Source of the DNA: Bacteroidota bacterium
Lineage (GTDB): Bacteria > Bacteroidota > Bacteroidia > Chitinophagales > Chitinophagaceae
Length of the DNA stretch: 32,989 nt
Direction of reading: 5' to 3'
Assembly: GCA_031413675.1 (NCBI GenBank)
Contig: JANOFP010000527.1
Span: forward strand, 1 to 32,989
The notes under the pieces were generated by a model. That model was not told the DNA's origin and ran no database searches. It saw only the letters and a program-made list of their open reading frames with translations. Both the position numbers and the translations under genes were made by a program. Positions 3,851 to 32,827 of this stretch are shown in pieces (position 1 is the first letter of the stretch; each line of letters begins with the position of its first letter).

Positions 3851-3920
3851 CCGGCGGTTGATTAGGATTTGGAGGTCGTTGATTTCTTTGATTGGGATTT
3901 TGTCGGTCTCTTTGTTGAAG
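3851..3920 (-). pseudogene. Orphan copy of the ricT (PSP1) 3' end
   Basis: 3871-3917 matches 5180-5226 at 42/47 bases without gaps. In the ricT frame it reads LQQRDRQNPNQRNQRPPNPNQPPGGN. It has no start codon and is out of frame with the adjacent ATPase stop. Confidence 0.6.
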
Positions 3921-3921
3921 T

Positions 3922-5049
3922 TTATTGCAACCACCTCATTAAAAATTTATCATAAACTGCATAGTAAGGTTCTGCAATGCCACCGTTGTAATACACCATT
4001 TCTTTTGCCAATAATGCCTCCAGGCCTCTCTTTACTAATGAAGAGTTTCCTAAATGGTTTTTACTTATAAATTCATTAGAATGGGGTTTTATTAATTTCT
4101 CTTCTTTTGCAATTGCTGTAAGCAATACCCATTGTGCATGTGTAAGCAGGTTCCTGTATTGGTAAAATATATCCTCTTTTTGTTTCAATAGTTCACTACT
4201 AACTTTAATCGTTTCTTCAATACCAATATTTTTTATGCCACTTGCAAAAATGCAATTACATAACTCTTGTACATAAAAGGTATGTGTATGGGTGAAATTT
4301 AATATATACTCAATAGCCTCAACGCTAATTTTTCGTTTATACGTTGAAAAATTATTTTTAATAAATTGCCCGTATTCTGTATTATTTATAAACCCAATTG
4401 ACAAGTTATTACAACTGGCATAGAATGGCCTTTTTGCACTGTTGAACATTTCCGTCATTATACGATGGTTGCTGCCACAAAAAATAAACCGGCAATTTTT
4501 TAACTGCTGCATATAAGTCCTCAACAATGCTTCTGTATTTTTTTCCGGGTAAGTGGTTATTTGCTGAAATTCATCAATAGCAATAACAACAGCGATGTTT
4601 TGCTTATCTAAAAAATTAAATAATTGCTGTATGGTTCTTTCAGATTCACGGTGCTGCCCCAAATCTAATGTTACCTCCGGGTTACCTGTCATTGCATCAT
4701 AACTTATTACCGGCCTCAATAGCTTAAGTACAGACAAAAATTTCTGCCCTATCCCTTTCTTCTCAGGAAACCGGTTATAGATTGCGGTAGCCAGGTTGTT
4801 TGTAAACTCCTTAAGGTTAACGGTAGAAAAAATATCTAAATAGATGCAAGCAATTTTTTTTGACCCTGATAGTTGATGAAATACATGGTGTACCAATCCC
4901 GTTTTACCCAATCTGCGTAATGCAAAAAGGGTAATGTTATTTTCATTTTTAATCAGCGAAAGTAAACGCCGGGTTTCTTCTTTTCTATCGCAAAAGTAAA
5001 CTGGACTGTGGTAGCCCGACGTAATAAATGGGTTGGCTGGGCGGTTCAT
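3922..5049 (-). CDS. ATP-binding protein, AAA/STAND-like (archaeal-ATPase PF01637 / DUF234-type architecture)
   Basis: It has a Walker A-like RRLGKTGL, a Walker B VVIAIDEFQQI, a sensor-like FCGSNH and a C-terminal winged-helix-like region. The family assignment is from memory, not searched. Confidence 0.85.
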   Translation of the reverse strand: MNRPANPFITSGYHSPVYFCDRKEETRRLLSLIKNENNITLFALRRLGKTGLVHHVFHQLSGSKKIACIYLDIFSTVNLKEFTNNLATAIYNRFPEKKGIGQKFLSVLKLLRPVISYDAMTGNPEVTLDLGQHRESERTIQQLFNFLDKQNIAVVIAIDEFQQITTYPEKNTEALLRTYMQQLKNCRFIFCGSNHRIMTEMFNSAKRPFYASCNNLSIGFINNTEYGQFIKNNFSTYKRKISVEAIEYILNFTHTHTFYVQELCNCIFASGIKNIGIEETIKVSSELLKQKEDIFYQYRNLLTHAQWVLLTAIAKEEKLIKPHSNEFISKNHLGNSSLVKRGLEALLAKEMVYYNGGIAEPYYAVYDKFLMRWLQ

Positions 5050-5109: not shown

Positions 5110-6462
5110 TTACGCATTTCCCTCATTTGTATTGCCTGCCTGCCGGTCAGGCGGACCCGGACGTTGCTGGTTCGAATTCGGTGGTCGCTGATTTCTTTGA
5201 TTGGGGTTTTGCCTGTCTCTTTGTTGGTTGGGGTTTTGTCCGCCTCTTTGCTGATTCGGATTATTGCGTGGTGGTCCTTGTGGTCCCTGTGATCTTTGTC
5301 CACCGGATCCTGCGGATTGATTTCCCTGTTGTCTTTGCTGCTGACGTGGTTGCTGCTGTTGCTTTCGTTTACGGTCAGCTCTTTCTAATTGCTGCAAACT
5401 TATCTGTCCTACTACATCCACAAACTCGGGTTCTACTTCTTTGGGTTTAGTACTTGTTATTTCCACTGCTTCCAGTTCGTCGGGTATTACACCCTGTACA
5501 TTCAGCGTTTTTATTTTCTGCACCCGTTCAATCGTAAGTGGATAATGCTTGGTGCTGTCCGGCATAGTGTACCACATCAGGTTTTTAAAAATATCTTTTT
5601 TAATCAGAAAGGCATTGCCTTTTGTAATTTTCAATACATCGCAGTCTTCGGGGAAATGTTGCAATGCATCCAGATAAGTATCGAGTTCATAATTCAAACA
5701 ACATTTTAATCTTCCGCACTGTCCGCTAAGCTTTGTTTGATTGATTGATAAATTCTGATAACGGGCCGCTGTTGTATTTACACTTTTAAATTCGGTGAGC
5801 CATGTACTACAACACAATTCACGACCACAACTTCCGATGCCCCCGACTTTAGCACTCTCCTGCCTTGCTCCAATCTGACGCATTTCCACTTTTACTTTAA
5901 ACTCACCGGCATATACTTTTATCAATTCACGAAAATCCACACGGCCTTCGGCTATATAAAAAAAGGTTGCCTTACGTCCGTCGGCTTGCATCTCCACTTC
6001 ACTTATTTTCATGTTTAGTTTCAGCTGCTTTGCAATTGCACGGCTACGTATCACGGCTTCTTTCTCTCTTGCTTTATTACTGCGCCAGGTATCTACATCT
6101 CTGTCATTTGAGCGGCGAAGAATTTTTTTCATCTCTTTGTCATCTTCTTTTACACCATGCCTTTTCATTTGTAACCGAACAATCTCACCTGTCAAAGAAA
6201 TTTCACCCAAATCAAAACCACTTACACCTTCTACCGAAACCATATCGCCTTTTTCGTATTCATGCAATGTAGTATTTCTAAAAAAATCTTTGCGGCTACC
6301 GTTATTAAAACTTATCTCCACCACTTTACATTCATCACCAGCGTCGGCAACAGGAAGGTTGCGCAGCCAGTCATGCGTATTCATGCGGTTGCATCCGCCA
6401 GAACTACATCCGCCGTTGCTTTTACATCCACCTGGTTTTGTACCACAACTACCGCAAGCCAT
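5110..6462 (-). CDS. ricT: PSP1 domain protein (YaaT/RicT family) with a Cys-rich N-terminus and a Q/N/R/P-rich C-terminal tail
   Basis: The N-terminus is CGSCGTKPGGCKSNGGCSSGGC. PSP1-type Cys motifs CGRELCC and CGRLKCCLNYE are present. It lies downstream of holB, as in many bacteria. Confidence 0.9.
   Translation of the reverse strand: MACGSCGTKPGGCKSNGGCSSGGCNRMNTHDWLRNLPVADAGDECKVVEISFNNGSRKDFFRNTTLHEYEKGDMVSVEGVSGFDLGEISLTGEIVRLQMKRHGVKEDDKEMKKILRRSNDRDVDTWRSNKAREKEAVIRSRAIAKQLKLNMKISEVEMQADGRKATFFYIAEGRVDFRELIKVYAGEFKVKVEMRQIGARQESAKVGGIGSCGRELCCSTWLTEFKSVNTTAARYQNLSINQTKLSGQCGRLKCCLNYELDTYLDALQHFPEDCDVLKITKGNAFLIKKDIFKNLMWYTMPDSTKHYPLTIERVQKIKTLNVQGVIPDELEAVEITSTKPKEVEPEFVDVVGQISLQQLERADRKRKQQQQPRQQQRQQGNQSAGSGGQRSQGPQGPPRNNPNQQRGGQNPNQQRDRQNPNQRNQRPPNSNQQRPGPPDRQAGNTNEGNA
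5135..5155. repeat. 21-nt GC hairpin element, copy inside the ricT CDS (encodes PDRQAG)
   Basis: CCTGCCTG-CCGGT-CAGGCGGA matches the radA copy at 19/21 positions. Confidence 0.75.
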
Positions 6463-6801: not shown

Positions 6802-6825
6802 AACCTGTCTGCCGACAGGCAGGTT
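6802..6825. repeat. GC hairpin element, intergenic copy 16 nt downstream of the holB stop, flanked by CAACTCA/CATCTCA and CCACTCA heptamers
   Basis: AACCTGTCTG-CCGA-CAGGCAGGTT forms 10 bp, with one T:G position. Confidence 0.7.
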
Positions 6826-6840
6826 CACCACTCACATCCC

Positions 6841-8070
6841 TCAATCTGCCAAAAGTACTATTTTGTTTTTAATGATATGATATAGTTTAATGGTAAGGGC
6901 ATGGAAGAGCATTTTGGCGTTGGCATTGCGTTCTATATAATAAACCGCCCTGTCAAGCTCCTCTACTATAGCCTGTTGCTGGCTGATGTCGGCTATTTTA
7001 TTAATTCGGTTTGCAAAATCATTTTCAGAGCTGTCAGTGGCTTCAATACCTATGGGGCTGGTGATGCGCAAATGAATACTTTGTTCTAACAGGTGATTAA
7101 AATAGCGGAGAAACTGTTTTTGTTTTTCCCTGCCAAGCCTGCTTATCTCTTCCACCCATTTAGTTTGAGCAGCTGGCCCCGTTTTTAAAATTGCATTCAG
7201 CCAGTCCCGTAATAAACTTTGCCAATCTTCATCGGCATGTTGTAATTGCTGTAAAGCATCCCGGTAATTTCCATCGCTTGTTGCCGCTACCTGCCTTGCT
7301 TTATTCGCATCGGTATTGTTTCTGTTTATCAGTGCATCTGCTATATCCTTTGTTTCAAGCAATGGAATTTTCACCAATTGACATCTCGATACGATTGTTG
7401 GTAGAATTAAGGATTCATTTTCTGCAACCAAGATAAATAAAGTATTGGGTGGCGGCTCTTCAATAATCTTCAACAATTTGTTTCCTTCTTTTTCCAGGTA
7501 CTCGGGCATCCAGAGAATTAATATTTTATAGGGGCTTTCAAAACTTTTCAGACTTAGTTTCTTAATAATGTCATTGCATTCAAGTGCCGTTATATTTCCT
7601 TGCTTGTTTTCTGCTCCTATAAACTGAAGCCAGTCATATATATTTCCATAAGGGTAGCCTTTTATAAATTCTCGCCACTCGGTTATATAATCTGTACTGA
7701 TAGGTGGTTTGCCCGATTTGTTTGTTACAACAGGATAGGAAAAATGAATATCAGGATGAACGAGTTCATTTGCTTTTTTACAACCGGAGCAAATGCCGCA
7801 GGAATCTGAAGGTGAGTGGTGAGTGGTGAGTGATGAGTGTGAAGGCTCATCTCCAAACAAAGAAGGTTCTGAGTGCTGATTGCCGACTGCTGACTGTTTG
7901 TCGCCAGTTTTTTCGCAAACAACATACTGGGCAAATGCAAGAGCAAGCTGTAATGCACCACTTCCTTCTTTACCTAAAAACAATAATGCATGAGCCAGCC
8001 TGTTTGTTTGCATCATATCAGCTAATTGATGCTTTACGTTTTGTTGTGCTATGATAGAAGAAAATTGCAT
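6841..8070 (-). CDS. holB: DNA polymerase III subunit delta' (clamp-loader AAA+), carrying a 28-aa repeat-derived insert
   Basis: The N-terminus has AHALLFLGKEGSG. A zinc-module CGICSGC is followed by HPDIHF, and the SRC motif TIVSRCQ is present. The gene is adjacent to ricT. Confidence 0.85.
   Translation of the reverse strand: MQFSSIIAQQNVKHQLADMMQTNRLAHALLFLGKEGSGALQLALAFAQYVVCEKTGDKQSAVGNQHSEPSLFGDEPSHSSLTTHHSPSDSCGICSGCKKANELVHPDIHFSYPVVTNKSGKPPISTDYITEWREFIKGYPYGNIYDWLQFIGAENKQGNITALECNDIIKKLSLKSFESPYKILILWMPEYLEKEGNKLLKIIEEPPPNTLFILVAENESLILPTIVSRCQLVKIPLLETKDIADALINRNNTDANKARQVAATSDGNYRDALQQLQHADEDWQSLLRDWLNAILKTGPAAQTKWVEEISRLGREKQKQFLRYFNHLLEQSIHLRITSPIGIEATDSSENDFANRINKIADISQQQAIVEELDRAVYYIERNANAKMLFHALTIKLYHIIKNKIVLLAD
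7813..7896 (-). repeat. Two-part heptamer-array module in frame in holB (4 x CAGTCAG-type, a 28-nt spacer, 4 x CCACTCA-type)
   Basis: On the plus strand the units are TGAGTGG x2, TGAGTGA and TGAGTGT (7813-7840), and CTGAGTG, CTGATTG, CCGACTG and CTGACTG (7869-7896). The 84 nt equal 12 x 7 and correspond to codons 59-86 exactly. Confidence 0.8.
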
Positions 8071-10919: not shown

Positions 10920-12314
10920 TTAAAACAATAATTTATATACTTCTTCTACCGTTCCCATTGTAATTACTTCAATGCCTGCCTGCCGGTCAGGCAGGTTGAA
11001 TTTTTGTTTCCCAATTCCTTTCTGGTTGTATTTAGAAATAATAATTTTTTCAAATCCCAATTTTTCTGCTTCAGCAATTCTTTGTTCTATCCTGTTTACT
11101 GCTCTGATTTCTCCGCTCAATCCAACTTCGCCAGCAAAACAAATTTGCTGAGTTAGCGGCGTATCATCATAGGAAGATAGCAATGCACAAATAATAGCAA
11201 GGTCAGTTGAAGGGTCTTCTACTTTTAATCCACCGGCAATATTTAAAAAAACATCTTTTACACCAAAATGAAATCCCCCTCTTTTTTCCAGTACAGCAAG
11301 CAATAGCTGCAGTCTTCTTAAATCGAAACCACTTACTGTTCTTTGCGGTGTACCATAAACTGATTGTGTAACCAATGCCTGCACTTCTATTAATAAGGGT
11401 CGCATTCCTTCCATCATTGCTGCTATAGCAATACCACTTAAATTTTCTTCTTTTTGTGTAATTAAAATTTCACTGGGGTTTAAAACTCCCCGCATTCCTG
11501 CATCTGTCATCTCATAAATACCTAATTCCGAAGTGCTGCCAAAACGGTTTTTAAGTGTTCTTAAAATCCGGTATGCGTGATGACGATCGCCTTCAAATTG
11601 TAAAACCGTATCCACCATATGCTCAAGAATTTTTGGACCAGCTATACTGCCATCTTTAGTTATGTGGCCAATTAAAAAAACAGGAGTATTCGTTTCTTTT
11701 GCAAACCGTTGAAATTCGGATGTACATTCTCTGATTTGCGATACACTGCCAGGCGATGATTCAATATAAGGCGTCTGTAATGTTTGTATAGAATCAATGA
11801 TTACTAACTGCGGTTTTAATTTTTTTATTTCCTGAAAAATAACCTGTGTGGATGTTTCTGTAAGCAGATAAAATTTTTCATTCTTTAATTGCAATCTGTC
11901 TGCACGCATTTTAATCTGCAACTCACTTTCTTCGCCACTTATATAAAGAACAGTTGTGTCCTTCATCCATAACCCGTTTTGTAAAAACAAAGTTGATTTG
12001 CCAATGCCCGGTTCGCCAGCAACTAAAACAATACTACCCGGAACAATGCCTCCACCTAACACACGATTTAATTCAACATCCGCTGTTAGCAATCTTTTTT
12101 CTCCAGTTGTTATTATTTCATTTAATTGAATTGTTCTTTCAGTTCGGGGTTCAGCATTATAATCCTTCCATCCATTATTATTTTTAGTTGTATCCTTCTG
12201 AATTATTTCTTCTACAAATGTATTCCACTGACTACAAGAAGGACATTGACCTGCCCATTTAACTGTCTCATATCCGCAGTTCTGACAAAAAAAACTTGTT
12301 TTCACTTTACTCAT
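10920..12314 (-). CDS. radA: DNA repair protein RadA/Sms
   Basis: It has the zinc finger CQNCGYETVKWAGQCPSC, Walker A GEPGIGKST, a KNRFG motif and a Lon-like C-terminal domain. Confidence 0.95.
   Translation of the reverse strand: MSKVKTSFFCQNCGYETVKWAGQCPSCSQWNTFVEEIIQKDTTKNNNGWKDYNAEPRTERTIQLNEIITTGEKRLLTADVELNRVLGGGIVPGSIVLVAGEPGIGKSTLFLQNGLWMKDTTVLYISGEESELQIKMRADRLQLKNEKFYLLTETSTQVIFQEIKKLKPQLVIIDSIQTLQTPYIESSPGSVSQIRECTSEFQRFAKETNTPVFLIGHITKDGSIAGPKILEHMVDTVLQFEGDRHHAYRILRTLKNRFGSTSELGIYEMTDAGMRGVLNPSEILITQKEENLSGIAIAAMMEGMRPLLIEVQALVTQSVYGTPQRTVSGFDLRRLQLLLAVLEKRGGFHFGVKDVFLNIAGGLKVEDPSTDLAIICALLSSYDDTPLTQQICFAGEVGLSGEIRAVNRIEQRIAEAEKLGFEKIIISKYNQKGIGKQKFNLPDRQAGIEVITMGTVEEVYKLLF
10975..10995. 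repeat. 21-nt GC hairpin element, perfect copy inside the radA CDS (encodes LPDRQAG)
   Basis: CCTGCCTG-CCGGT-CAGGCAGG has 8-bp perfect arms. It has the same orientation and reading frame as the ricT copy. Confidence 0.8.
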
Positions 12315-29174: not shown

Positions 29175-29486
29175 GTTTTCACGTAGCGATCGCAAAATAG
29201 AAGCAATTCAGCCGGGCACATAAAAAAACCGGCAAAAAACTTACCGGCTGGTGATTTTAATTATTGTGGACCTGAAAAGGGAGCATTGCACAGGTTTGGA
29301 TTCTTTCAAGGGTAATTCAAAAATAATTCCGGACATAAAAACGGGACATTTCAATACAATAATAGATGGCATAAACCGCTGAAGGTTGTGTTGACAAAAA
29401 TTTTTTAACAAATTCATTTCTGTTACCTTGCGCCACTGTTTTTAAAAAGCATTTGATGATTGATTAACTTTGAAAAAAAATTGATA

Positions 29487-31352
29487 GTGCAGGATAAAAT
29501 TCTTTTATTGCCCGATAATATAGCCAACCAAATAGCTGCCGGTGAAGTAATTCAACGGCCAGCAAGTGCTGTAAAAGAATTATTGGAAAATGCGGTAGAT
29601 GCGGGAGCTACTGAAATAAAATTGATTGTGGCTGATGCAGGAAAAGCGTTGATTCAGGTGATAGATAATGGCGGAGGCATGAGTGAAACCGATGCAAGAA
29701 TGTGTTTTGAACGTCACGCCACATCGAAGATTGAAACCATTGAAGATTTATTTCATATTAAAACAATGGGCTTTCGGGGAGAAGCATTGGCTTCTATTGC
29801 AGCCGTAGCGCAGGTAGAATTGAAAACAAAAAGAGCAGATGATGAAACCGGAACTTATATTGAAATTGAAAACAGTTTTGTAAAAAAACAAGAACCTATT
29901 GCAGCACCTACCGGCACCAGCATTGCCATGAAGAATTTATTTTTTAATGTGCCTGCCCGTCGAAATTTTTTGAAAAGTAATGCTGCCGAGATGCGGCATA
30001 TCGTAGATGAGTTTATACGGGTGGCACTTGCATTTCCAGAACTTTTTTTTTCGCTTACGGCAAACAATCAGCAACTGATGCATTTAGATGCCGGTAGTAT
30101 GAAGCAACGCATAATTCAGGTGCTGGGAAATAATTACAATGCAAAACTGGTAGCTGTAAAAGAAGAGACGGACTATATGAATATTTCAGGCTTCGTTGGT
30201 AAACCTGAAACAGCAAAGAAGACAAGAGGTGATCAGTATTTTTTTGTAAACAACCGGTTTATTAAAAGTGCTTATCTCAATCATGCCGTAATGAGTGCAT
30301 ACCAGGAAATGATTGCAAAAGATAGTTTTCCGATGTATTGTTTGTTTATTGATCTTGACCCGGCAGTAGTGGATGTAAATGTGCATCCGACAAAACAGGA
30401 AATAAAATTTGAAGATGAAAAAATTATTTATGCGTTTGTTCAGGCTGCAGTAAAGCATGCATTGGCACAGTTCAGCATTTCTCCTACATTGGATTTTTCA
30501 TTGAATGCCGATATACAACAATTGCCTTCCGTACAGCAACCATTTACAAAAGAAAAAGAATCATCAGCAGCCTCAACTTCCTTGTTTAAAGAATTTACAC
30601 AAAAAAACCAGGCACATTTTATAGAGAAAAATGAATTGAAGCATTGGAAAGATTTGTATGAAAGCAATCAGCAATCAGGAGTCAGTGGCCAGCAGTCAGC
30701 AATCAGCAGCCAGGGAAATGATCAACGTTCAATTGAAGAAAATCCTTCTGGATTTAAGAGTCTGCTTGCCACTCACGACTCACCACTCACCACTCACAAC
30801 ACTCAACTACATAATCAATTTATTATTGCACCTACTCCGTCTGGTTTCATTCTCATCGATCAGCAGGCGGCACATGAAAGAATTATTTATGAACGATTGC
30901 TGAATGCCTCAAAAGATAAACCCGTAACAACACAGCGAAGCATTTTTCCAATAACGATTGAATTAACTCCTGCTGATGCCGTTCTTATTGATGAGTTGAA
31001 AACCGAATTGCAATTACTTGGATTTTTGATTGAACCTTTTGGGAAAAATACTTTTGTAGTACAGGGTACACCTGCCGATGTACCGCAGGGAAATGAAAAA
31101 CAGGCAATCGATTCTTTATTGGAACAGTTCAAGCATTTCAGCAGCGACATAAAATTTTCGAAACGAGAAAAGCTGATTCGTTCACTTGCATGGCATCAAT
31201 CTATAAAGGCAGGCACTTCATTAACAGAAAAAGAAATGAAAGGTTTGATCGATGATTTGTTTCAATGTGCTACTCCCAATGCAACTCCCGGTGGCAGTCC
31301 TACTTATTTAGAGTTTAAGAAAGATCAGTTGGAGAAAATGTTTGGCAAGTAA
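29487..31352 (+). CDS. mutL: DNA mismatch repair protein MutL, with a repeat-derived linker insert
   Basis: It has the GHKL N-terminus LLPDNIANQIAAGEVIQRPASAVKELLENAVDAGA, DNGGGM and a C-terminal dimerisation domain. The start is uncertain: GTG 29487 places LLP at residues 7-9 as in other MutL proteins, and the alternatives are TTG 29460 and TTG 29481. Confidence 0.9.
   Translation: MQDKILLLPDNIANQIAAGEVIQRPASAVKELLENAVDAGATEIKLIVADAGKALIQVIDNGGGMSETDARMCFERHATSKIETIEDLFHIKTMGFRGEALASIAAVAQVELKTKRADDETGTYIEIENSFVKKQEPIAAPTGTSIAMKNLFFNVPARRNFLKSNAAEMRHIVDEFIRVALAFPELFFSLTANNQQLMHLDAGSMKQRIIQVLGNNYNAKLVAVKEETDYMNISGFVGKPETAKKTRGDQYFFVNNRFIKSAYLNHAVMSAYQEMIAKDSFPMYCLFIDLDPAVVDVNVHPTKQEIKFEDEKIIYAFVQAAVKHALAQFSISPTLDFSLNADIQQLPSVQQPFTKEKESSAASTSLFKEFTQKNQAHFIEKNELKHWKDLYESNQQSGVSGQQSAISSQGNDQRSIEENPSGFKSLLATHDSPLTTHNTQLHNQFIIAPTPSGFILIDQQAAHERIIYERLLNASKDKPVTTQRSIFPITIELTPADAVLIDELKTELQLLGFLIEPFGKNTFVVQGTPADVPQGNEKQAIDSLLEQFKHFSSDIKFSKREKLIRSLAWHQSIKAGTSLTEKEMKGLIDDLFQCATPNATPGGSPTYLEFKKDQLEKMFGK
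30662..30717 (+). repeat. Eight tandem heptamers (AAGCAAT CAGCAAT CAGGAGT CAGTGGC CAGCAGT CAGCAAT CAGCAGC CAGGGAA) in the mutL linker
   Basis: The 7-nt periodicity is seen directly. The array encodes QQSGVSGQQSAISSQG. Confidence 0.8.
30769..30810 (+). repeat. Tandem heptamers CCACTCA CGACTCA CCACTCA CCACTCA (then degenerate CAACACT CAACTAC) in the mutL linker
   Basis: Seen directly. It encodes THDSPLTTHNTQL and uses the same unit as the holB array and the holB 3' flank. Confidence 0.8.
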
Positions 31353-31358
31353 GGCTAC

Positions 31359-31447
31359 ACGCAAAGACGCTAAGATTAAAACAAAAGAAGCAAAGAGAGT
31401 TTTTTACTTTGCGTTATTCTTTGCGTCCCTGCCTGCCGTCTGGCAGG
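31359..31447. terminator. Compound hairpins in the convergent mutL/dacB spacer, including a GC hairpin copy at 31428-31447
   Basis: ACGCAAAGA (31359-31367) pairs with TCTTTGCGT (31418-31426) around an inner GCAAAG/CTTTGC hairpin that has a T-rich tail on the minus strand. Next comes CCTGCC-TGCCGTCT-GGCAGG followed by TTTGCG on the plus strand. Confidence 0.45.
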
Positions 31448-31462
31448 TTTGCGTGAAATATT

Positions 31463-32797
31463 TTAATACTTATTGCGGATTGACTGGATAAATTTTTCGA
31501 CAGCACGCCGCACTGCGATAGCAGAAGCTTGATGATTATTTATCAAAACAGAAAAAAGCAATTGCTTTCCTTTTTTGGTAGTAAGAAAACCGCTGAGTGC
31601 AACAACACCGCTTAGTGTTCCGGTTTTTGCATAAATAAATCCGCTGTCGGTTTTATAATAACTGCTGATTGTGCCCTCACCACCTGTAGGAAAAATTTCT
31701 TTGATGCGGTTCATACCAAATTCATTTTTCATCTTATTTAAAATGGCAACAAAATCCTGTGGAGTAAATAAATTATAGCGGCTCAGACCGGAACCATCCA
31801 CCCATCTTGGTTTTTGTGGCAGGTCTTTAAAATCTGTTTTTAATAATGTGTCAATGATCTTTTCATCATTCATTACACCGAGCAGTTCATTGCTTACCAT
31901 TAATAAACTTTGCTCTGCAAAAAAATTATCACTGCGGTGCATCATGGGTTTGAGGAGGGAGTCGGTGGGTTGGGAATGGATGACTTTAAAATTATTTCTG
32001 TTAGAATAAATACCTGTTCGAACTTTTTTATGAATTGTGTCACCAAGTATTTCGATATAGACTAATCCACTAGTGGGTCTAAAAGGGGCTCGTATTGTTT
32101 TACTACCATTCCCTGGTCCATAACACCCAATTAAATATTTATTCTCAAATACATCAAATTTTTTTATTGATTTAAAAACCCTACATTGAATATCAGTCAC
32201 GATATTATTTTCGAAAATTCTCGGTATAGAAGATACTTTCCCTGTATCATTAACTGAAAAAGTCACAAGATTGCCATAAACAGGAAACTCAGACCTGGGG
32301 ACTAAGTATGTTTCACTCACATCATTAATTTGCCATCCATTTCCATAAGGAAATCTATAATTCGTTTCATATGGTGCCAAAACAGCTACATTCAATCCAG
32401 TAGTGTTTAAGAAATTATAAACTGGATGAACTTTAAAATCAGGATGCAAAAAAGTAGGGTCGCCGTTAGGTTTAAAGGATATACTCGAGTCATTATCGTT
32501 TAAATACCTCAACCCCACCAAACTATCTCCCAAATATTTCATCGCTACATAGCAGGCAGGGATTTTTGTATTACTCGCAGGCACAAAATATTTTTCACCA
32601 TTATAATTATACCAGTATTTGTTTTCTCCGGGTTCGTAAATGCTGATGCCAACATGTGCTGTGAGCAATGAAGAATCTTGTAAAACAATTTCTTTTGCTG
32701 ATCTGGAGATTTGTTTTGTGATATTGCATGAAGCGAGCAGCAAGAGACAAGTAGCGAGTGGGAGAAAGCAGCGGGCTTTTAATTGAATAGTGAGCAT
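31463..32797 (-). CDS. dacB: D-alanyl-D-alanine carboxypeptidase/endopeptidase (PBP4, peptidase S13), lipoprotein
   Basis: It has SxxK (ASNTK), an SxN-type motif (HRSDN), KTG (AKTGT) and the lipobox LLLLASC. Confidence 0.85.
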   Translation of the reverse strand: MLTIQLKARCFLPLATCLLLLASCNITKQISRSAKEIVLQDSSLLTAHVGISIYEPGENKYWYNYNGEKYFVPASNTKIPACYVAMKYLGDSLVGLRYLNDNDSSISFKPNGDPTFLHPDFKVHPVYNFLNTTGLNVAVLAPYETNYRFPYGNGWQINDVSETYLVPRSEFPVYGNLVTFSVNDTGKVSSIPRIFENNIVTDIQCRVFKSIKKFDVFENKYLIGCYGPGNGSKTIRAPFRPTSGLVYIEILGDTIHKKVRTGIYSNRNNFKVIHSQPTDSLLKPMMHRSDNFFAEQSLLMVSNELLGVMNDEKIIDTLLKTDFKDLPQKPRWVDGSGLSRYNLFTPQDFVAILNKMKNEFGMNRIKEIFPTGGEGTISSYYKTDSGFIYAKTGTLSGVVALSGFLTTKKGKQLLFSVLINNHQASAIAVRRAVEKFIQSIRNKY

Positions 32798-32816
32798 TGA
32801 ATATTGAGTATTGAAT
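32782..32816. repeat. Five tandem heptamers ATTGAAT AGTGAGC ATTGAAT ATTGAGT ATTGAAT spanning the dacB start codon
   Basis: Seen directly. The start codon (CAT on the plus strand, 32795-32797) straddles units 2 and 3. Confidence 0.7.
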
Positions 32817-32827
32817 ATTTCTTATTT

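What the first reader, a model, noticed from the sequence alone, without database searches (positions are those of the whole stretch)
30662..30810. The same two-part heptamer module forms the MutL interdomain linker
30662-30717 is eight consecutive 7-mers, seven of them starting with CAG, and two adjacent units are identical (GCAATCA GCAATCA). A 51-nt spacer follows. Then 30769-30796 is CCACTCA CGACTCA CCACTCA CCACTCA, trailed by degenerate units. The translation is QQSGVSGQQSAISSQ...LATHDSPLTTHNTQL. Order and orientation relative to the coding strand match the holB module, and both spacers contain CCTTCT. The MutL linker tolerates variable sequence, so insertion there is plausible. In enterobacterial mutL, a short tandem repeat is known to modulate mutator state by slippage (established knowledge, recalled). 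By analogy, a 7-nt unit change here would switch mismatch repair off, giving a possible contingency mutator switch. That is inference only, and the degeneracy of the units argues against high-rate switching.
Basis: partly seen in the sequence, partly recalled or inferred. Interest (0 to 1): 0.66.

Follow-up and report, generated by a model that had tools for sequence, protein, structure and literature searches.

The report
Seven-base repeats build MutL's linker
The flexible middle of this soil bacterium's DNA-repair protein MutL is encoded by two short runs of 7-base repeats, and in related wild populations the gain or loss of one 7-base unit has knocked the gene out of frame, so the repeat is a natural weak point that can turn mismatch repair off.

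Summary
mutL (29487-31352, +) carries (CAGNNNN)8 at 30662-30717, a 51-nt spacer and (CNACTCA)4+ at 30769-30802. holB (6841-8070, -) has the same two arrays in the same order. Period-7 arrays are about 25-fold enriched in the window; other periods are not.

This is not a recent insertion. All ~200 MutL and HolB homologues examined (Chitinophagaceae, 70-95% identical) have heptamer-built segments at the same sites, and PheS-alpha and a DUF7033 protein carry arrays too. The two arrays are the arms of an inverted heptamer-array hairpin. It is decayed here and nearly perfect in some relatives. The 5' arm has lost the stop codons that exact complementarity would create. The same hairpins lie between genes in many phyla, always as 5'-(..AGT..)n...(..ACT..)n-3' (54:0).

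Five of the 120 closest MutL N-terminal matches are split by a frameshift inside the linker. Two contigs that are 99.8% identical differ by exactly one 7-nt unit there.

The window's allele is in frame, and its longest perfect run is 2.9 units. Adaptive, reversible switching is not shown, and the same arrays in essential holB and pheS argue against design. New variant of known kinds.

The parts
29487..31352 (+). mutL, endonuclease-type DNA mismatch repair protein. The ORF is open from the TTG at 29460; the database protein of 621 aa starts at 29487.
   Evidence: Pfam finds HATPase_c_3, DNA_mis_repair and MutL_C. PDB MutL N-terminal and C-terminal domain hits. Homologues are named MutL.
30662..30717 (+). 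Array 1, the 5' arm: eight 7-nt units of the CAGNNNN / ..AGT.. type, encoding SNQQSGVSGQQSAISSQG. The longest perfect period-7 run is 16 nt (30663-30678).
30718..30768 (+). Central spacer of 51 nt. It holds a remnant of a third heptamer family, AAYGWTC (AATGATC AACGTTC AATTGAA), which is expanded in relatives as NVQRSMLNAQYS. It is followed by the semi-conserved peptide xF(K/E)SLL.
30769..30810 (+). Array 2, the 3' arm: CCACTCA CGACTCA CCACTCA CCACTCA plus two degenerate units (..ACT.. type), encoding ATHDSPLTTHNTQL. The longest perfect run is 20 nt (30778-30797). This is the same family in which a 7-nt unit polymorphism is seen in relatives L208 and L209.
6841..8070 (-). holB, DNA polymerase III delta' subunit. 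It hosts the second copy of the two-array arrangement in the loop between the first Cys and the CGxCxxC of its zinc module.
   Evidence: Pfam DNA_pol3_delta2, split into two stretches
7869..7896 (-). holB array 1: CAGTCAG CAGTCGG CAATCAG CACTCAG on the coding strand.
7841..7868 (-). holB spacer encoding EPSLFGDEPS. The core PSLFGDEP is conserved in nearly all of the 120 homologues.
7811..7840 (-). holB array 2: ACACTCA TCACTCA CCACTCA CCACTCA CC on the coding strand, with a perfect run of 22 nt.
6802..6840 (-). Intergenic example of the same repeat system, directly after the holB stop codon: GTGAGTG-type heptamer units on both sides of a small palindrome AACCTGCCTGTCGGCAGACAGGTT (6802-6825).
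32798..32819 (-). Heptamer array (AATAYTC)3 that abuts the start codon of the D-Ala-D-Ala carboxypeptidase gene (31463-32797). It shows that such arrays are a general feature of this genome.

Best explanation
The MutL linker of this Chitinophagaceae bacterium is built largely from two short tandem arrays of 7-nt units. They are the two arms of an inverted heptamer-array hairpin: the 5' arm is of the ..AGT.. type and the 3' arm of the ..ACT.. type. Hairpins of this kind are scattered through this genome and through many bacterial phyla. I infer that such arrays arise and turn over by gain and loss of whole units through slipped-strand or hairpin-assisted misalignment. Inside genes they survive only in disordered segments. 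There the 5' arm has been purged of the stop codons that perfect complementarity would create, which is why the window's arms are now only weakly complementary. Translated, the arrays are hydrophilic filler (S/Q/G/T/H/P) with no sequence-specific role. Because 7 is not a multiple of 3, any change of one or two units puts the C-terminal endonuclease and dimerisation domain out of frame. The linker is therefore a frameshift hot spot that produces mismatch-repair-null, presumably mutator, variants, and a further unit change can in principle restore the frame. What is shown: the anatomy, the conservation across the clade, the hairpin relation, frameshifted natural alleles, and one 7-nt unit polymorphism. 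What is inferred: the slippage mechanism, the mutator phenotype and reversibility. Selection for switching is not implied.
For: - Enrichment is specific to period 7: 7 arrays against 0.27 expected in the window, and 198 period-7 arrays against 4 at period 8 and 1 at period 9 in 683 kb of related loci.
- All MutL homologues have heptamer-coded linkers such as SGVGSQES / NVQRSMLNAQYS / IHHSPFTIHD. All HolB homologues have heptamer-coded flanks around PSLFGDEP. PheS-alpha and a DUF7033 protein of relatives carry arrays too.
- Hairpin relation: 17 of 80 linkers fold with z < -2. The best examples are L173 (-7.4), L164 (-5.6), L162, L154 and L197, where array 1 pairs with array 2.
- In L208 and L209, array 1 (CGTGAGT CGTCAGT CGTGAAC CGTGAGG) is the complement of array 2, (ACTCACG)n. 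It carries a G-to-C change exactly in the unit where TGA would be in frame.
- The same hairpins, (GGTGAGT)n-loop-(ACTCACC)n, lie between genes in Planctomycetes, Cyanobacteria, Acidobacteria, Gemmatimonadetes and others. Their polarity is absolute: 37:0 and 54:0. The window's arrays obey the rule.
- Frameshift hot spot: 5 of the 120 best N-terminal hits are interrupted inside the linker, and none visibly in the C-terminal domain, which is 3.6 times longer.
- L208 and L209 differ by 8 SNPs and one 7-nt unit; their linkers are 85 and 92 nt, against 99 or 102 nt in in-frame relatives.
- Simulated changes of +/-7 or -14 nt in the window's arrays give proteins of 422-478 aa without the C-terminal domain. 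A change of -21 nt keeps the frame.
- The arrays are dispensable: P0244 is full length with a 12-aa linker.
- No Rfam family matches.
Against: - The window's own module folds no better than shuffles: z = -1.3 on the sense strand, and -2.0 to -2.3 on the antisense strand. For this copy the hairpin relation is inferred from relatives and from the AGT/ACT polarity.
- The window's arrays are impure, with at most 2.9 perfect units. No read-level data from its population were available, so instability of this particular allele is not shown.
- At least one frameshifted contig (L210) probably comes from a long-read assembly. A cluster-mate, P0329, has a frameshift elsewhere in the gene, so some frameshifts may be sequencing errors.
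- L208 and L209 are both out of frame. That fits a lineage that has simply lost mutL, with the array now drifting, as well as it fits ongoing switching.
- Plain slippage does not explain the absolute AGT-to-ACT polarity, or why the same heptamer recurs across phyla. The origin of the arrays is therefore not fully explained.
Confidence: 0.62

Rival explanations
1. Adaptive contingency locus. The heptamer arrays are kept in the mutL linker because reversible 7-nt slippage switches mismatch repair off and on. This would create mutator subpopulations that help the lineage adapt.
For: - The unit length is not a multiple of 3, and frameshifted alleles occur in about 4% of the closest homologue clusters, all within the linker.
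- Two different out-of-frame lengths (2 and 3 units) occur in one population whose flanking domains are otherwise intact.
- Many in-frame alleles keep 4 or more perfect units, 26-32 nt.
- There is precedent for repeat-mediated mutL switching in Salmonella and E. coli (PMC2955026).
- The +2 frame across the window's linker is open, so two compensating slips would be tolerated.
Against: - The same arrays sit in essential holB and pheS, and in intergenic DNA. Their presence therefore needs no switching function.
- No ON/OFF mixture has been seen within one sample.
- No rate, reversion or phenotype data exist.
- The window's tracts are short and impure compared with classical contingency loci.
- One homologue works without arrays.
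Confidence: 0.2
2. Mobile cassette. A discrete bipartite element (array 1, spacer, array 2) transposed in frame into mutL and holB, in the manner of Rickettsia palindromic elements or a MITE.
For: - The same two arrays occur in the same order in two unrelated genes, and a CCTTCT hexamer is shared.
- The absolute polarity of the hairpins and their spread across phyla suggest a defined element.
- Tiny palindromes that clearly are mobile insert into these arrays.
Against: - There are only two copies in 33 kb, and no further partial copies.
- The spacers differ in length (51 against 28 nt) and in sequence.
- The holB spacer encodes a peptide conserved in all homologues.
- The arrays occupy the same sites in all homologues down to about 70% identity, but with different heptamer families.
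- No empty site with sharp boundaries and no target duplication was seen.
Confidence: 0.08
3. Stable low-complexity linker. Selection is for a hydrophilic disordered peptide, the DNA periodicity is incidental, and the frameshifted alleles in databases are sequencing or assembly errors or dead genes.
For: - The encoded residues (S, Q, G, T, H, P) are typical of disordered linkers.
- 84 of 84 linkers from the metagenome scan and the close relatives are in frame.
- Some long-read MAGs in the same clusters have frameshifts elsewhere in the gene (P0326 and P0329).
Against: - The same heptamers are read in different codon phases in holB and mutL, and they also occur in non-coding DNA.
- Enrichment is specific to period 7.
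- L208 and L209 are short-read (k141) contigs from two samples, and they differ by exactly one unit.
- Frameshifts cluster in the linker rather than in the longer C-terminal domain.
Confidence: 0.1

Closest known systems
Short tandemly repeated repetitive (STRR) heptanucleotide sequences of heterocystous cyanobacteria, and the 'long simple sequence repeats' of 5-11 nt surveyed by Mrazek and co-workers (as summarised in PMC4679880 and PMC4692102)
   Same: Both are tandem 7-nt units in a few to many copies, dispersed through the genome, with several heptamer families per genome. Heptamers are the most abundant class of long repeat. STRRs also occur inside a functional gene, the RNase P RNA (title of Vioque 1997, seen). 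From memory, they lengthen a helix there.
   Different: Here the host is Bacteroidota (Chitinophagaceae). The arrays lie inside protein-coding housekeeping genes (mutL, holB, pheS) and are translated. They come as paired inverted arrays with a fixed AGT-to-ACT polarity, which I did not find described in the papers I could read.
TAACTGA direct heptamer repeats of marine Beggiatoaceae, Cyanobacteria and five Bacteroidetes (MacGregor 2015, PMC4679880)
   Same: Heptamer direct repeats with a patchy distribution across phyla. They often lie directly upstream of start codons, as do the window's (AATAYTC)3 before the carboxypeptidase gene. A few lie inside ORFs.
   Different: TAACTGA carries stop codons in all frames and is almost always intergenic. 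A regulatory binding role was proposed for it. No hairpin pairing, no translated arrays and no frameshift consequence were described.
The 6-bp (GCTGGC)3 repeat switch in mutL of Salmonella and E. coli (Chen et al. 2010, PMC2955026)
   Same: A short tandem repeat inside mutL whose copy number changes by slipped-strand mispairing and converts the gene between functional and defective alleles.
   Different: In the enterobacterial case the unit is 6 bp and stays in frame, sits in the N-terminal ATPase domain, and inactivates by adding or removing two residues. It is confined to close relatives of Salmonella. Here the unit is 7 nt, sits in the disordered linker, and inactivates by frameshift. It is also part of a genome-wide repeat class rather than a feature of mutL alone.
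Classical contingency loci (simple-sequence-repeat phase variation in Haemophilus, Neisseria and others)
   Same: A repeat inside an ORF whose unit length is not divisible by three, with ON and OFF states set by the number of units.
   Different: Classical loci have long pure tracts and measured high rates, and they mostly affect surface structures of host-adapted bacteria. Here there are 2-4 units, no measured rate, a soil bacterium and a repair gene.
Small dispersed repeats (SDR) of Nostoc (Elhai et al. 2008; paper not held, known here only from citations in PMC5861425 and PMC4390886 and from memory)
   Same: The tiny palindromes found in relatives, TCCCGATAGCTATCGGGA and CCTGCCTGCCGGCAGGCAGG, are about 18-22 nt long and dispersed. 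They insert into palindrome centres, hairpin tips and heptamer arrays, including arrays within genes. SDR5 is cited as inserting precisely into the HIP1 palindrome.
   Different: The sequences and the phylum differ, and the palindromes are also abundant in viral contigs. The claim that SDRs prefer heptamer repeats rests on my recollection and was not checked.
Rickettsia palindromic elements (in-frame insertions in conserved genes; from memory)
   Same: Repeat DNA that is tolerated and translated within surface-exposed or disordered parts of housekeeping proteins.
   Different: Those are discrete elements of about 100-150 bp with conserved sequence and presence/absence polymorphism. Here there is no conserved element, only arrays of short units that vary unit by unit.

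Membership tests
MutL (endonuclease-type mismatch repair protein) | N-terminal GHKL ATPase domain plus the DNA_mis_repair (transducer) domain | tested here: met
   Pfam HATPase_c_3 (35-153) and DNA_mis_repair (218-335, E = 1.9e-38). PDB MutL N-terminal domain hits cover residues 14-342.
MutL (endonuclease-type mismatch repair protein) | C-terminal dimerisation domain with the endonuclease motif DQHA(X)2E(X)4E | tested here: inconclusive
   MutL_C covers 448-588 (E = 2.1e-35). B. subtilis MutL C-terminal domain 3gab matches 447-629. The motif reads DQQAAHERIIYE, so both Glu are in place but the third residue is Q, not H. Activity was not testable.
MutL (endonuclease-type mismatch repair protein) | Unconserved flexible linker between the two domains | tested here: met
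   There are no invariant columns between W387 and Q440 in 46 homologues. No solved structure covers 343-441. Linker length is 72-225 nt in 84 alleles. The AF2 model was too poor to use.
Heptanucleotide tandem repeats (STRR / long simple sequence repeats) | Tandem units of exactly 7 nt, at least 3 copies, beyond chance | tested here: met
   TRF. 7 arrays against 0.27 expected, with other periods at expectation.
Heptanucleotide tandem repeats (STRR / long simple sequence repeats) | Dispersed at many loci of the genome, in several families | tested here: met
   Window: mutL, holB, downstream of holB and upstream of the carboxypeptidase gene. Relatives: 198 arrays in 683 kb, more than 30 families.
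Heptanucleotide tandem repeats (STRR / long simple sequence repeats) | Cyanobacterial host and mainly intergenic location, as originally defined for STRR | tested here: not met
   Homologues are named Chitinophagaceae or Bacteroidota. The arrays studied here are translated parts of ORFs.
Contingency locus (repeat-mediated phase variation) | Repeat inside an ORF whose unit length is not divisible by 3, so that a unit change shifts the frame | tested here: met
   Simulated changes of +/-7 and -14 nt truncate MutL at 422-478 aa.
Contingency locus (repeat-mediated phase variation) | Length polymorphism in unit steps, giving ON and OFF alleles in natural populations | tested here: inconclusive
   In relatives, L208 and L209 differ by one unit, both are OFF, and three more alleles are OFF. 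No ON/OFF mixture was seen in one sample, and there are no data for the window's own population.
Contingency locus (repeat-mediated phase variation) | Long, pure tract that gives a high switching rate | tested here: not met
   The longest perfect runs are 16 and 20 nt, that is 2.3 and 2.9 units. Relatives reach 32 nt.
Contingency locus (repeat-mediated phase variation) | Measured reversible switching with a phenotype (raised mutation rate) | not testable with these tools
   Needs cultures or read-level population data.
Enterobacterial mutL 6-bp repeat switch | Three GCTGGC units in the ATP-lid region of the N-terminal domain, with in-frame gain or loss | tested here: not met
   The repeats here are 7 nt and lie in the linker, residues about 401-447. 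The paper states the 6-bp repeat is limited to close relatives of Salmonella.
In-frame mobile insertion element (RPE-like or MITE-like cassette) | Copies share a conserved element sequence with defined ends | tested here: not met
   Only the heptamer arms are shared. The spacers are 51 and 28 nt and unrelated apart from CCTTCT.
In-frame mobile insertion element (RPE-like or MITE-like cassette) | Presence or absence between orthologues (empty sites) | tested here: not met
   Heptamer-built segments are at the same site in essentially all MutL and HolB homologues. The single array-less MutL (P0244) looks like a deletion, not an empty site.

The most novel reading that the evidence does not exclude
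The mutL and holB arrays may be instances of a so far undescribed, widespread repeat system. Its elements are hairpin-forming pairs of inverted heptamer arrays with an invariant polarity, 5'-(N4AGT)n ... (ACTN4)n-3'. They are shared by Bacteroidota, Planctomycetota, Cyanobacteria, Acidobacteriota and others. A sequence-specific process, not mere slippage, would make or maintain them, and micro-palindromes of 18-22 nt home to their centres. In Chitinophagaceae the system has colonised the disordered segments of housekeeping proteins. In mutL it would work as a reversible 7-nt frameshift switch that seeds mutator subpopulations in soil communities.
Probability: 0.22. Interest if true: 0.85.

Novelty: new variant of a known kind. 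Interest (0 to 1): 0.68.

Why it matters
The result bears on three questions.

1. It gives a concrete, testable route by which abundant soil Bacteroidota could produce mismatch-repair-deficient cells. One 7-nt unit change in a dispensable linker is enough. The prediction can be checked directly in existing metagenome reads, and frameshifted alleles are already visible in public assemblies.

2. It shows heptanucleotide repeats, known mostly as intergenic curiosities of cyanobacteria, building translated linkers and loops in core replication, repair and translation proteins (MutL, DNA polymerase III delta', PheS). This is a simple way for disordered protein segments to arise and change length quickly.

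3. The strict AGT-to-ACT polarity of inverted heptamer arrays across phyla, and the small palindromes that target them, point to an unidentified sequence-specific mechanism that deserves its own study.

Tried and rejected
- **Folding the window's two modules as RNA.** Neither strand folds clearly better than shuffles: z between +0.4 and -2.0, and -2.3 at most. The hairpin reading for this copy rests on relatives, not on its own fold.
- **Rfam scan of the whole window.** No family matched.
- **AlphaFold2 of MutL with a 46-sequence alignment.** Mean pLDDT was 46.7, so the model is unusable apart from showing no secondary structure in residues 392-444. I relied on Pfam and PDB domain boundaries instead.
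- **Papers not held.** Elhai et al. 2008 and Vioque 1997 could not be read. Statements about them are limited to what citing papers say, or are marked as recollection.
- **Mobile-cassette hypothesis.** Rejected because of clade-wide orthologous presence, heterogeneous heptamer families, unrelated spacers and no further copies.
- **Indel sizes among in-frame alleles.** I looked for multiples of 7. Because only in-frame alleles were in that sample, the differences are multiples of 3 (0, 3, 6, 18, 21 and so on). This says little about the unit process.
- **A common N4-A(G/A)T core for all heptamer families.** AGT/ACT holds for many families, but AAT/ATT families do not follow a consistent polarity, so I left this as a lead.
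- **SNP pattern between L208 and L209.** Eight SNPs are too few to reveal a mutator signature.
Full report
**1.

- The window is from a Chitinophagaceae (Bacteroidota) genome of about 36% G+C.
- The ORF 29460/29487-31352 (+) is MutL. Pfam finds HATPase_c_3, DNA_mis_repair (residues 218-335) and MutL_C (448-588). Solved MutL structures align only to residues 14-342 and 442-629.
  - 30662-30717: eight 7-mers, AAGCAAT CAGCAAT CAGGAGT CAGTGGC CAGCAGT CAGCAAT CAGCAGC CAGGGAA.
  - 30718-30768: a 51-nt spacer.
  - 30769-30796: CCACTCA CGACTCA CCACTCA CCACTCA, followed by two degenerate units.
- holB (6841-8070, minus strand; Pfam DNA_pol3_delta2) has, on its coding strand, CAGTCAG CAGTCGG CAATCAG CACTCAG, then 28 nt, then ACACTCA TCACTCA CCACTCA CCACTCA CC. 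This lies in the loop between the first Cys and the CGxCxxC of its zinc module.
- Chance does not explain this:
  - The two array patterns hit only these two places, 6 hits each against 0.05 and 0.03 expected.
  - Arrays of at least 3 units number 7 at period 7 against 0.27 expected. Periods 6 and 8-12 are at expectation.
- The two genes read the heptamers in different codon phases, so the resemblance lies in the DNA.

**2. It is not a recent insertion but a feature of the whole clade**

- The 120 closest MutL homologues (76-95% identical; soil, rhizosphere and wastewater MAGs named Chitinophagaceae) all have linkers made of peptides that back-translate to heptamer arrays. Examples are SGVGSQES (GAGTCGG/GAGTCAG), NVQRSMLNAQYS (AATGTTC) and IHHSPFTIHD (ATTCACC).
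- DNA of 84 alleles confirmed this. The linkers are 72-225 nt long, all in frame, with many heptamer families.
- The 120 closest HolB homologues all have the long loop. It has a conserved core PSLFGDEP flanked by variable heptamer-coded stretches such as RQSAVGNQQS and HSPLTTHHSP (DNA).
- In 683 kb of related loci there are 198 period-7 arrays, against 4 at period 8 and 1 at period 9.
- Other hosts are the interdomain linker of PheS-alpha, a DUF7033 protein, and the region abutting the start codon of the carboxypeptidase gene.
- One full-length MutL (P0244, 589 aa) has no arrays at all, so they are dispensable.

**3. The two parts are the arms of a hairpin**

- In many relatives array 1 and array 2 are inverted copies of one heptamer family and fold into a long stem. 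Of 80 distinct linkers, 17 have z < -2 against dinucleotide shuffles. The strongest are L173 (-7.4), L164 (-5.6), L197 (-5.9) and L162 (-4.0), and in each the pairing is arm to arm.
- An exact complement of the 3' arm would contain TGA. Accordingly the 5' arm carries stop-removing changes.
- The clearest case is L208/L209. There the 5' arm CGTGAGT CGTCAGT CGTGAAC CGTGAGG faces (ACTCACG)n, and the single G-to-C change sits in exactly the unit where TGA would be in frame.
- The window's own arms have diverged further and fold no better than shuffles: z = -1.3 on the sense strand, and -2.0 to -2.3 on the antisense strand. For this copy the hairpin relation is inferred.

**4. The same hairpins occur widely and have a fixed polarity**

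It returned loci from Chitinophagales, Flammeovirgaceae, Saprospiraceae, Cyanobacteria, Planctomycetota, Gemmatimonadota, Acidobacteriota and others.
- Many of these are intergenic (GGTGAGT)n-loop-(ACTCACC)n hairpins that lie just after stop codons, next to arrays of other heptamers.
- Of 119 such arrays with enough flank, 37 have the complementary array upstream and none downstream.
- Over all families, inverted pairs are 54:0 for 5'-(..AGT..)n ... (..ACT..)n-3'. The counts come mostly from the searched family, include some double counting, and also include unrelated families such as AGGGAGT/ACTCCCT and AACAGTG/ACTGATA.
- The window's arrays obey the rule, which explains the shared order in mutL and holB.
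- The shared orientation is forced, because both units reversed carry TGA in every frame.
- Plain slippage does not explain this polarity. It remains unexplained.

**5. Small palindromes home to these arrays**

- Relatives carry 18-22-nt palindromes inserted in frame in the arrays.
- TCCCGATAGCTATCGGGA is read as PIAIG or PDSYRD. It occurs twice in the L003 mutL, and in L130, L189 and the L205 holB, with a variant in the L207 holB.
- CCTGCCTGCCGGCAGGCAGG is read as LPAGQAG.
- The first occurs 9 times in 1.5 Mb of fetched bacterial DNA (about 0.01 expected) and 53 times in viral contigs. It typically sits at the tip of a pre-existing hairpin or between inverted heptamer arrays.
- The window has the second family at 6802-6825 (flanked by GTGAGTG units, just after holB), at 10975-10995 and at 31432-31447.
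- This resembles the small dispersed repeats of Nostoc. I could only cite those second hand.

**6.

- Any change of +/-7 or -14 nt in the window's arrays truncates MutL at 422-478 aa, before the C-terminal domain. A change of -21 nt keeps the frame.
- I searched with the N-terminal 400 residues alone, so that truncated products would rank equally with full-length ones. Five of the 120 best hits are 403-430 aa long.
- Their contigs (L208-L212) show an intact N-terminal ORF, a frame break inside the heptamer linker, and the C-terminal domain continuing in another frame.
- Two other short hits are contig-end truncations with in-frame linkers. None of the 120 shows a frameshift in the C-terminal domain, which is 3.6 times longer than the linker.
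- L208 and L209 are short-read (k141) contigs from two samples. They are 99.77% identical over 6.47 kb and differ by 8 substitutions and one gap, which is exactly one ACTCACG unit of array 2.
- Their linkers are 85 and 92 nt, both out of frame. In-frame relatives with four units have 99 or 102 nt.
- So 7-nt unit changes that inactivate mutL do occur in nature. They occur in tracts whose purity (17-24 nt perfect) brackets that of the window's array 2 (20 nt).

**7. What this does and does not show**

- It shows a frameshift hot spot. It does not show a selected, reversible switch.
- Both alleles of the L208/L209 lineage are OFF, which also fits a lineage that lost mutL and whose array now drifts.
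- At least one frameshifted contig probably comes from a long-read assembly, and cluster-mates from such data have frameshifts elsewhere in the gene.
- The same arrays in essential holB and pheS show that the arrays exist for reasons unrelated to switching.
- The known mutL repeat switch of Salmonella and E. coli is an in-frame 6-bp repeat in the ATPase domain (PMC2955026). That makes it a functional analogue, not a relative.
- Heptamer repeats as a class are known: STRR in cyanobacteria, the long simple sequence repeats of Mrazek, TAACTGA in Beggiatoaceae (PMC4679880), and GGGAATC in Xanthomonas and Nostoc (PMC4692102).
- In the papers I could search, I did not find them described as translated building blocks of housekeeping-protein linkers, as polar inverted pairs, or as a cause of mutL frameshifts.

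**8. Verdict**

The module and the 7-nt frameshift liability are real. 'Insertion' and 'contingency locus' are not established.
- I rate it a new variant of known kinds (heptanucleotide tandem repeats; repeat-mediated inactivation of mismatch-repair genes), with interest 0.68.
- The most novel reading still open is a widespread polar heptamer-hairpin system with its own mechanism, which acts in mutL as a reversible mutator switch. I give it about 0.2 probability.

Noticed in passing
window 6802-6840 (minus strand, directly 3' of the holB stop at 6841-6843): A small palindrome AACCTGCCTGTCGGCAGACAGGTT is embedded between GTGAGTG/TGTGAGA heptamer units. It is an intergenic example of the micro-palindrome-in-heptamer-array arrangement seen inside genes of relatives, and it may double as the holB terminator.
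   Followed up: partly
window 10975-10995 and 31432-31447: Two more members of the CCTGCCTGCCGG.CAGGCAGG palindrome family. One lies inside the last ~25 codons of the ORF 10920-12314 (minus strand). The other lies between the convergent mutL and carboxypeptidase genes. The family recurs in relatives inside the holB loop (L205) and the mutL linker (L124, L171).
   Followed up: partly
L003 3504 and 3547; L130 2664; L189 2689; L205 holB loop; 53 sites in viral loci L213-L258: The 18-nt perfect palindrome TCCCGATAGCTATCGGGA is a dispersed micro-element. It sits at hairpin and terminator tips, between inverted heptamer arrays, and in frame (as PIAIG or PDSYRD) within mutL and holB arrays. It is not present in the window. 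In L216 and L236 it lies within what looks like the D-loop region of a tRNA-Met-like sequence.
   Followed up: partly
loci L004-L123 (genome scan), plus the window arrays: Inverted heptamer-array pairs have an absolute polarity. The arm that contains AGT is always 5' and the arm that contains ACT is always 3' (37:0 and 54:0). A palindrome reads the same on both strands, so this cannot be a matter of transcription direction. No explanation was found.
   Followed up: partly
window 7841-7868 (holB residues EPSLFGDEPS): The peptide core PSLFGDEP, in the loop inserted into the delta' zinc module, is conserved in nearly all of the 120 homologues while its flanks vary freely. It resembles a short linear motif such as a clamp-binding (xSLF) motif. 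The MutL spacer has a semi-conserved F(K/E)SLL.
   Followed up: no
window 32798-32819: Three AATAYTC heptamers abut the ATG of the D-Ala-D-Ala carboxypeptidase (Peptidase_S13) gene. Relatives have AT-rich heptamer arrays, often as inverted pairs, at the same place. This recalls the TAACTGA repeats found just upstream of start codons in Beggiatoaceae.
   Followed up: no
window 3859-3917 and 5168-5226 (with 27-nt tandem units at 5197-5256): A 59-nt repeat, 85% identical, brackets the ATPase_2 gene (3922-5049). One copy forms the 3' end of the PSP1 gene and the other lies in the intergenic DNA beyond the ATPase gene. Relatives carry different genes at this spot (PDDEXK_3 in L206, a long gene set in L207). 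This suggests a variable insertion site with a target duplication.
   Followed up: partly
L135, L136, L158-L162, L166 (PheS-alpha genes of relatives): Phenylalanyl-tRNA synthetase alpha carries heptamer arrays (KSLTTHDSQLTT, TSNLKSQTSN, SNTEHQTSNID) between its N-terminal coiled coil and the catalytic core. It is a third essential protein with a heptamer-built linker.
   Followed up: partly
window 30880-30915 (MutL residues DQQAAHERIIYE): The endonuclease motif has Q where the canonical DQHA(X)2E(X)4E has H. Relatives read HQQAAHE. This may be a lineage-specific variant of the metal site.
   Followed up: no
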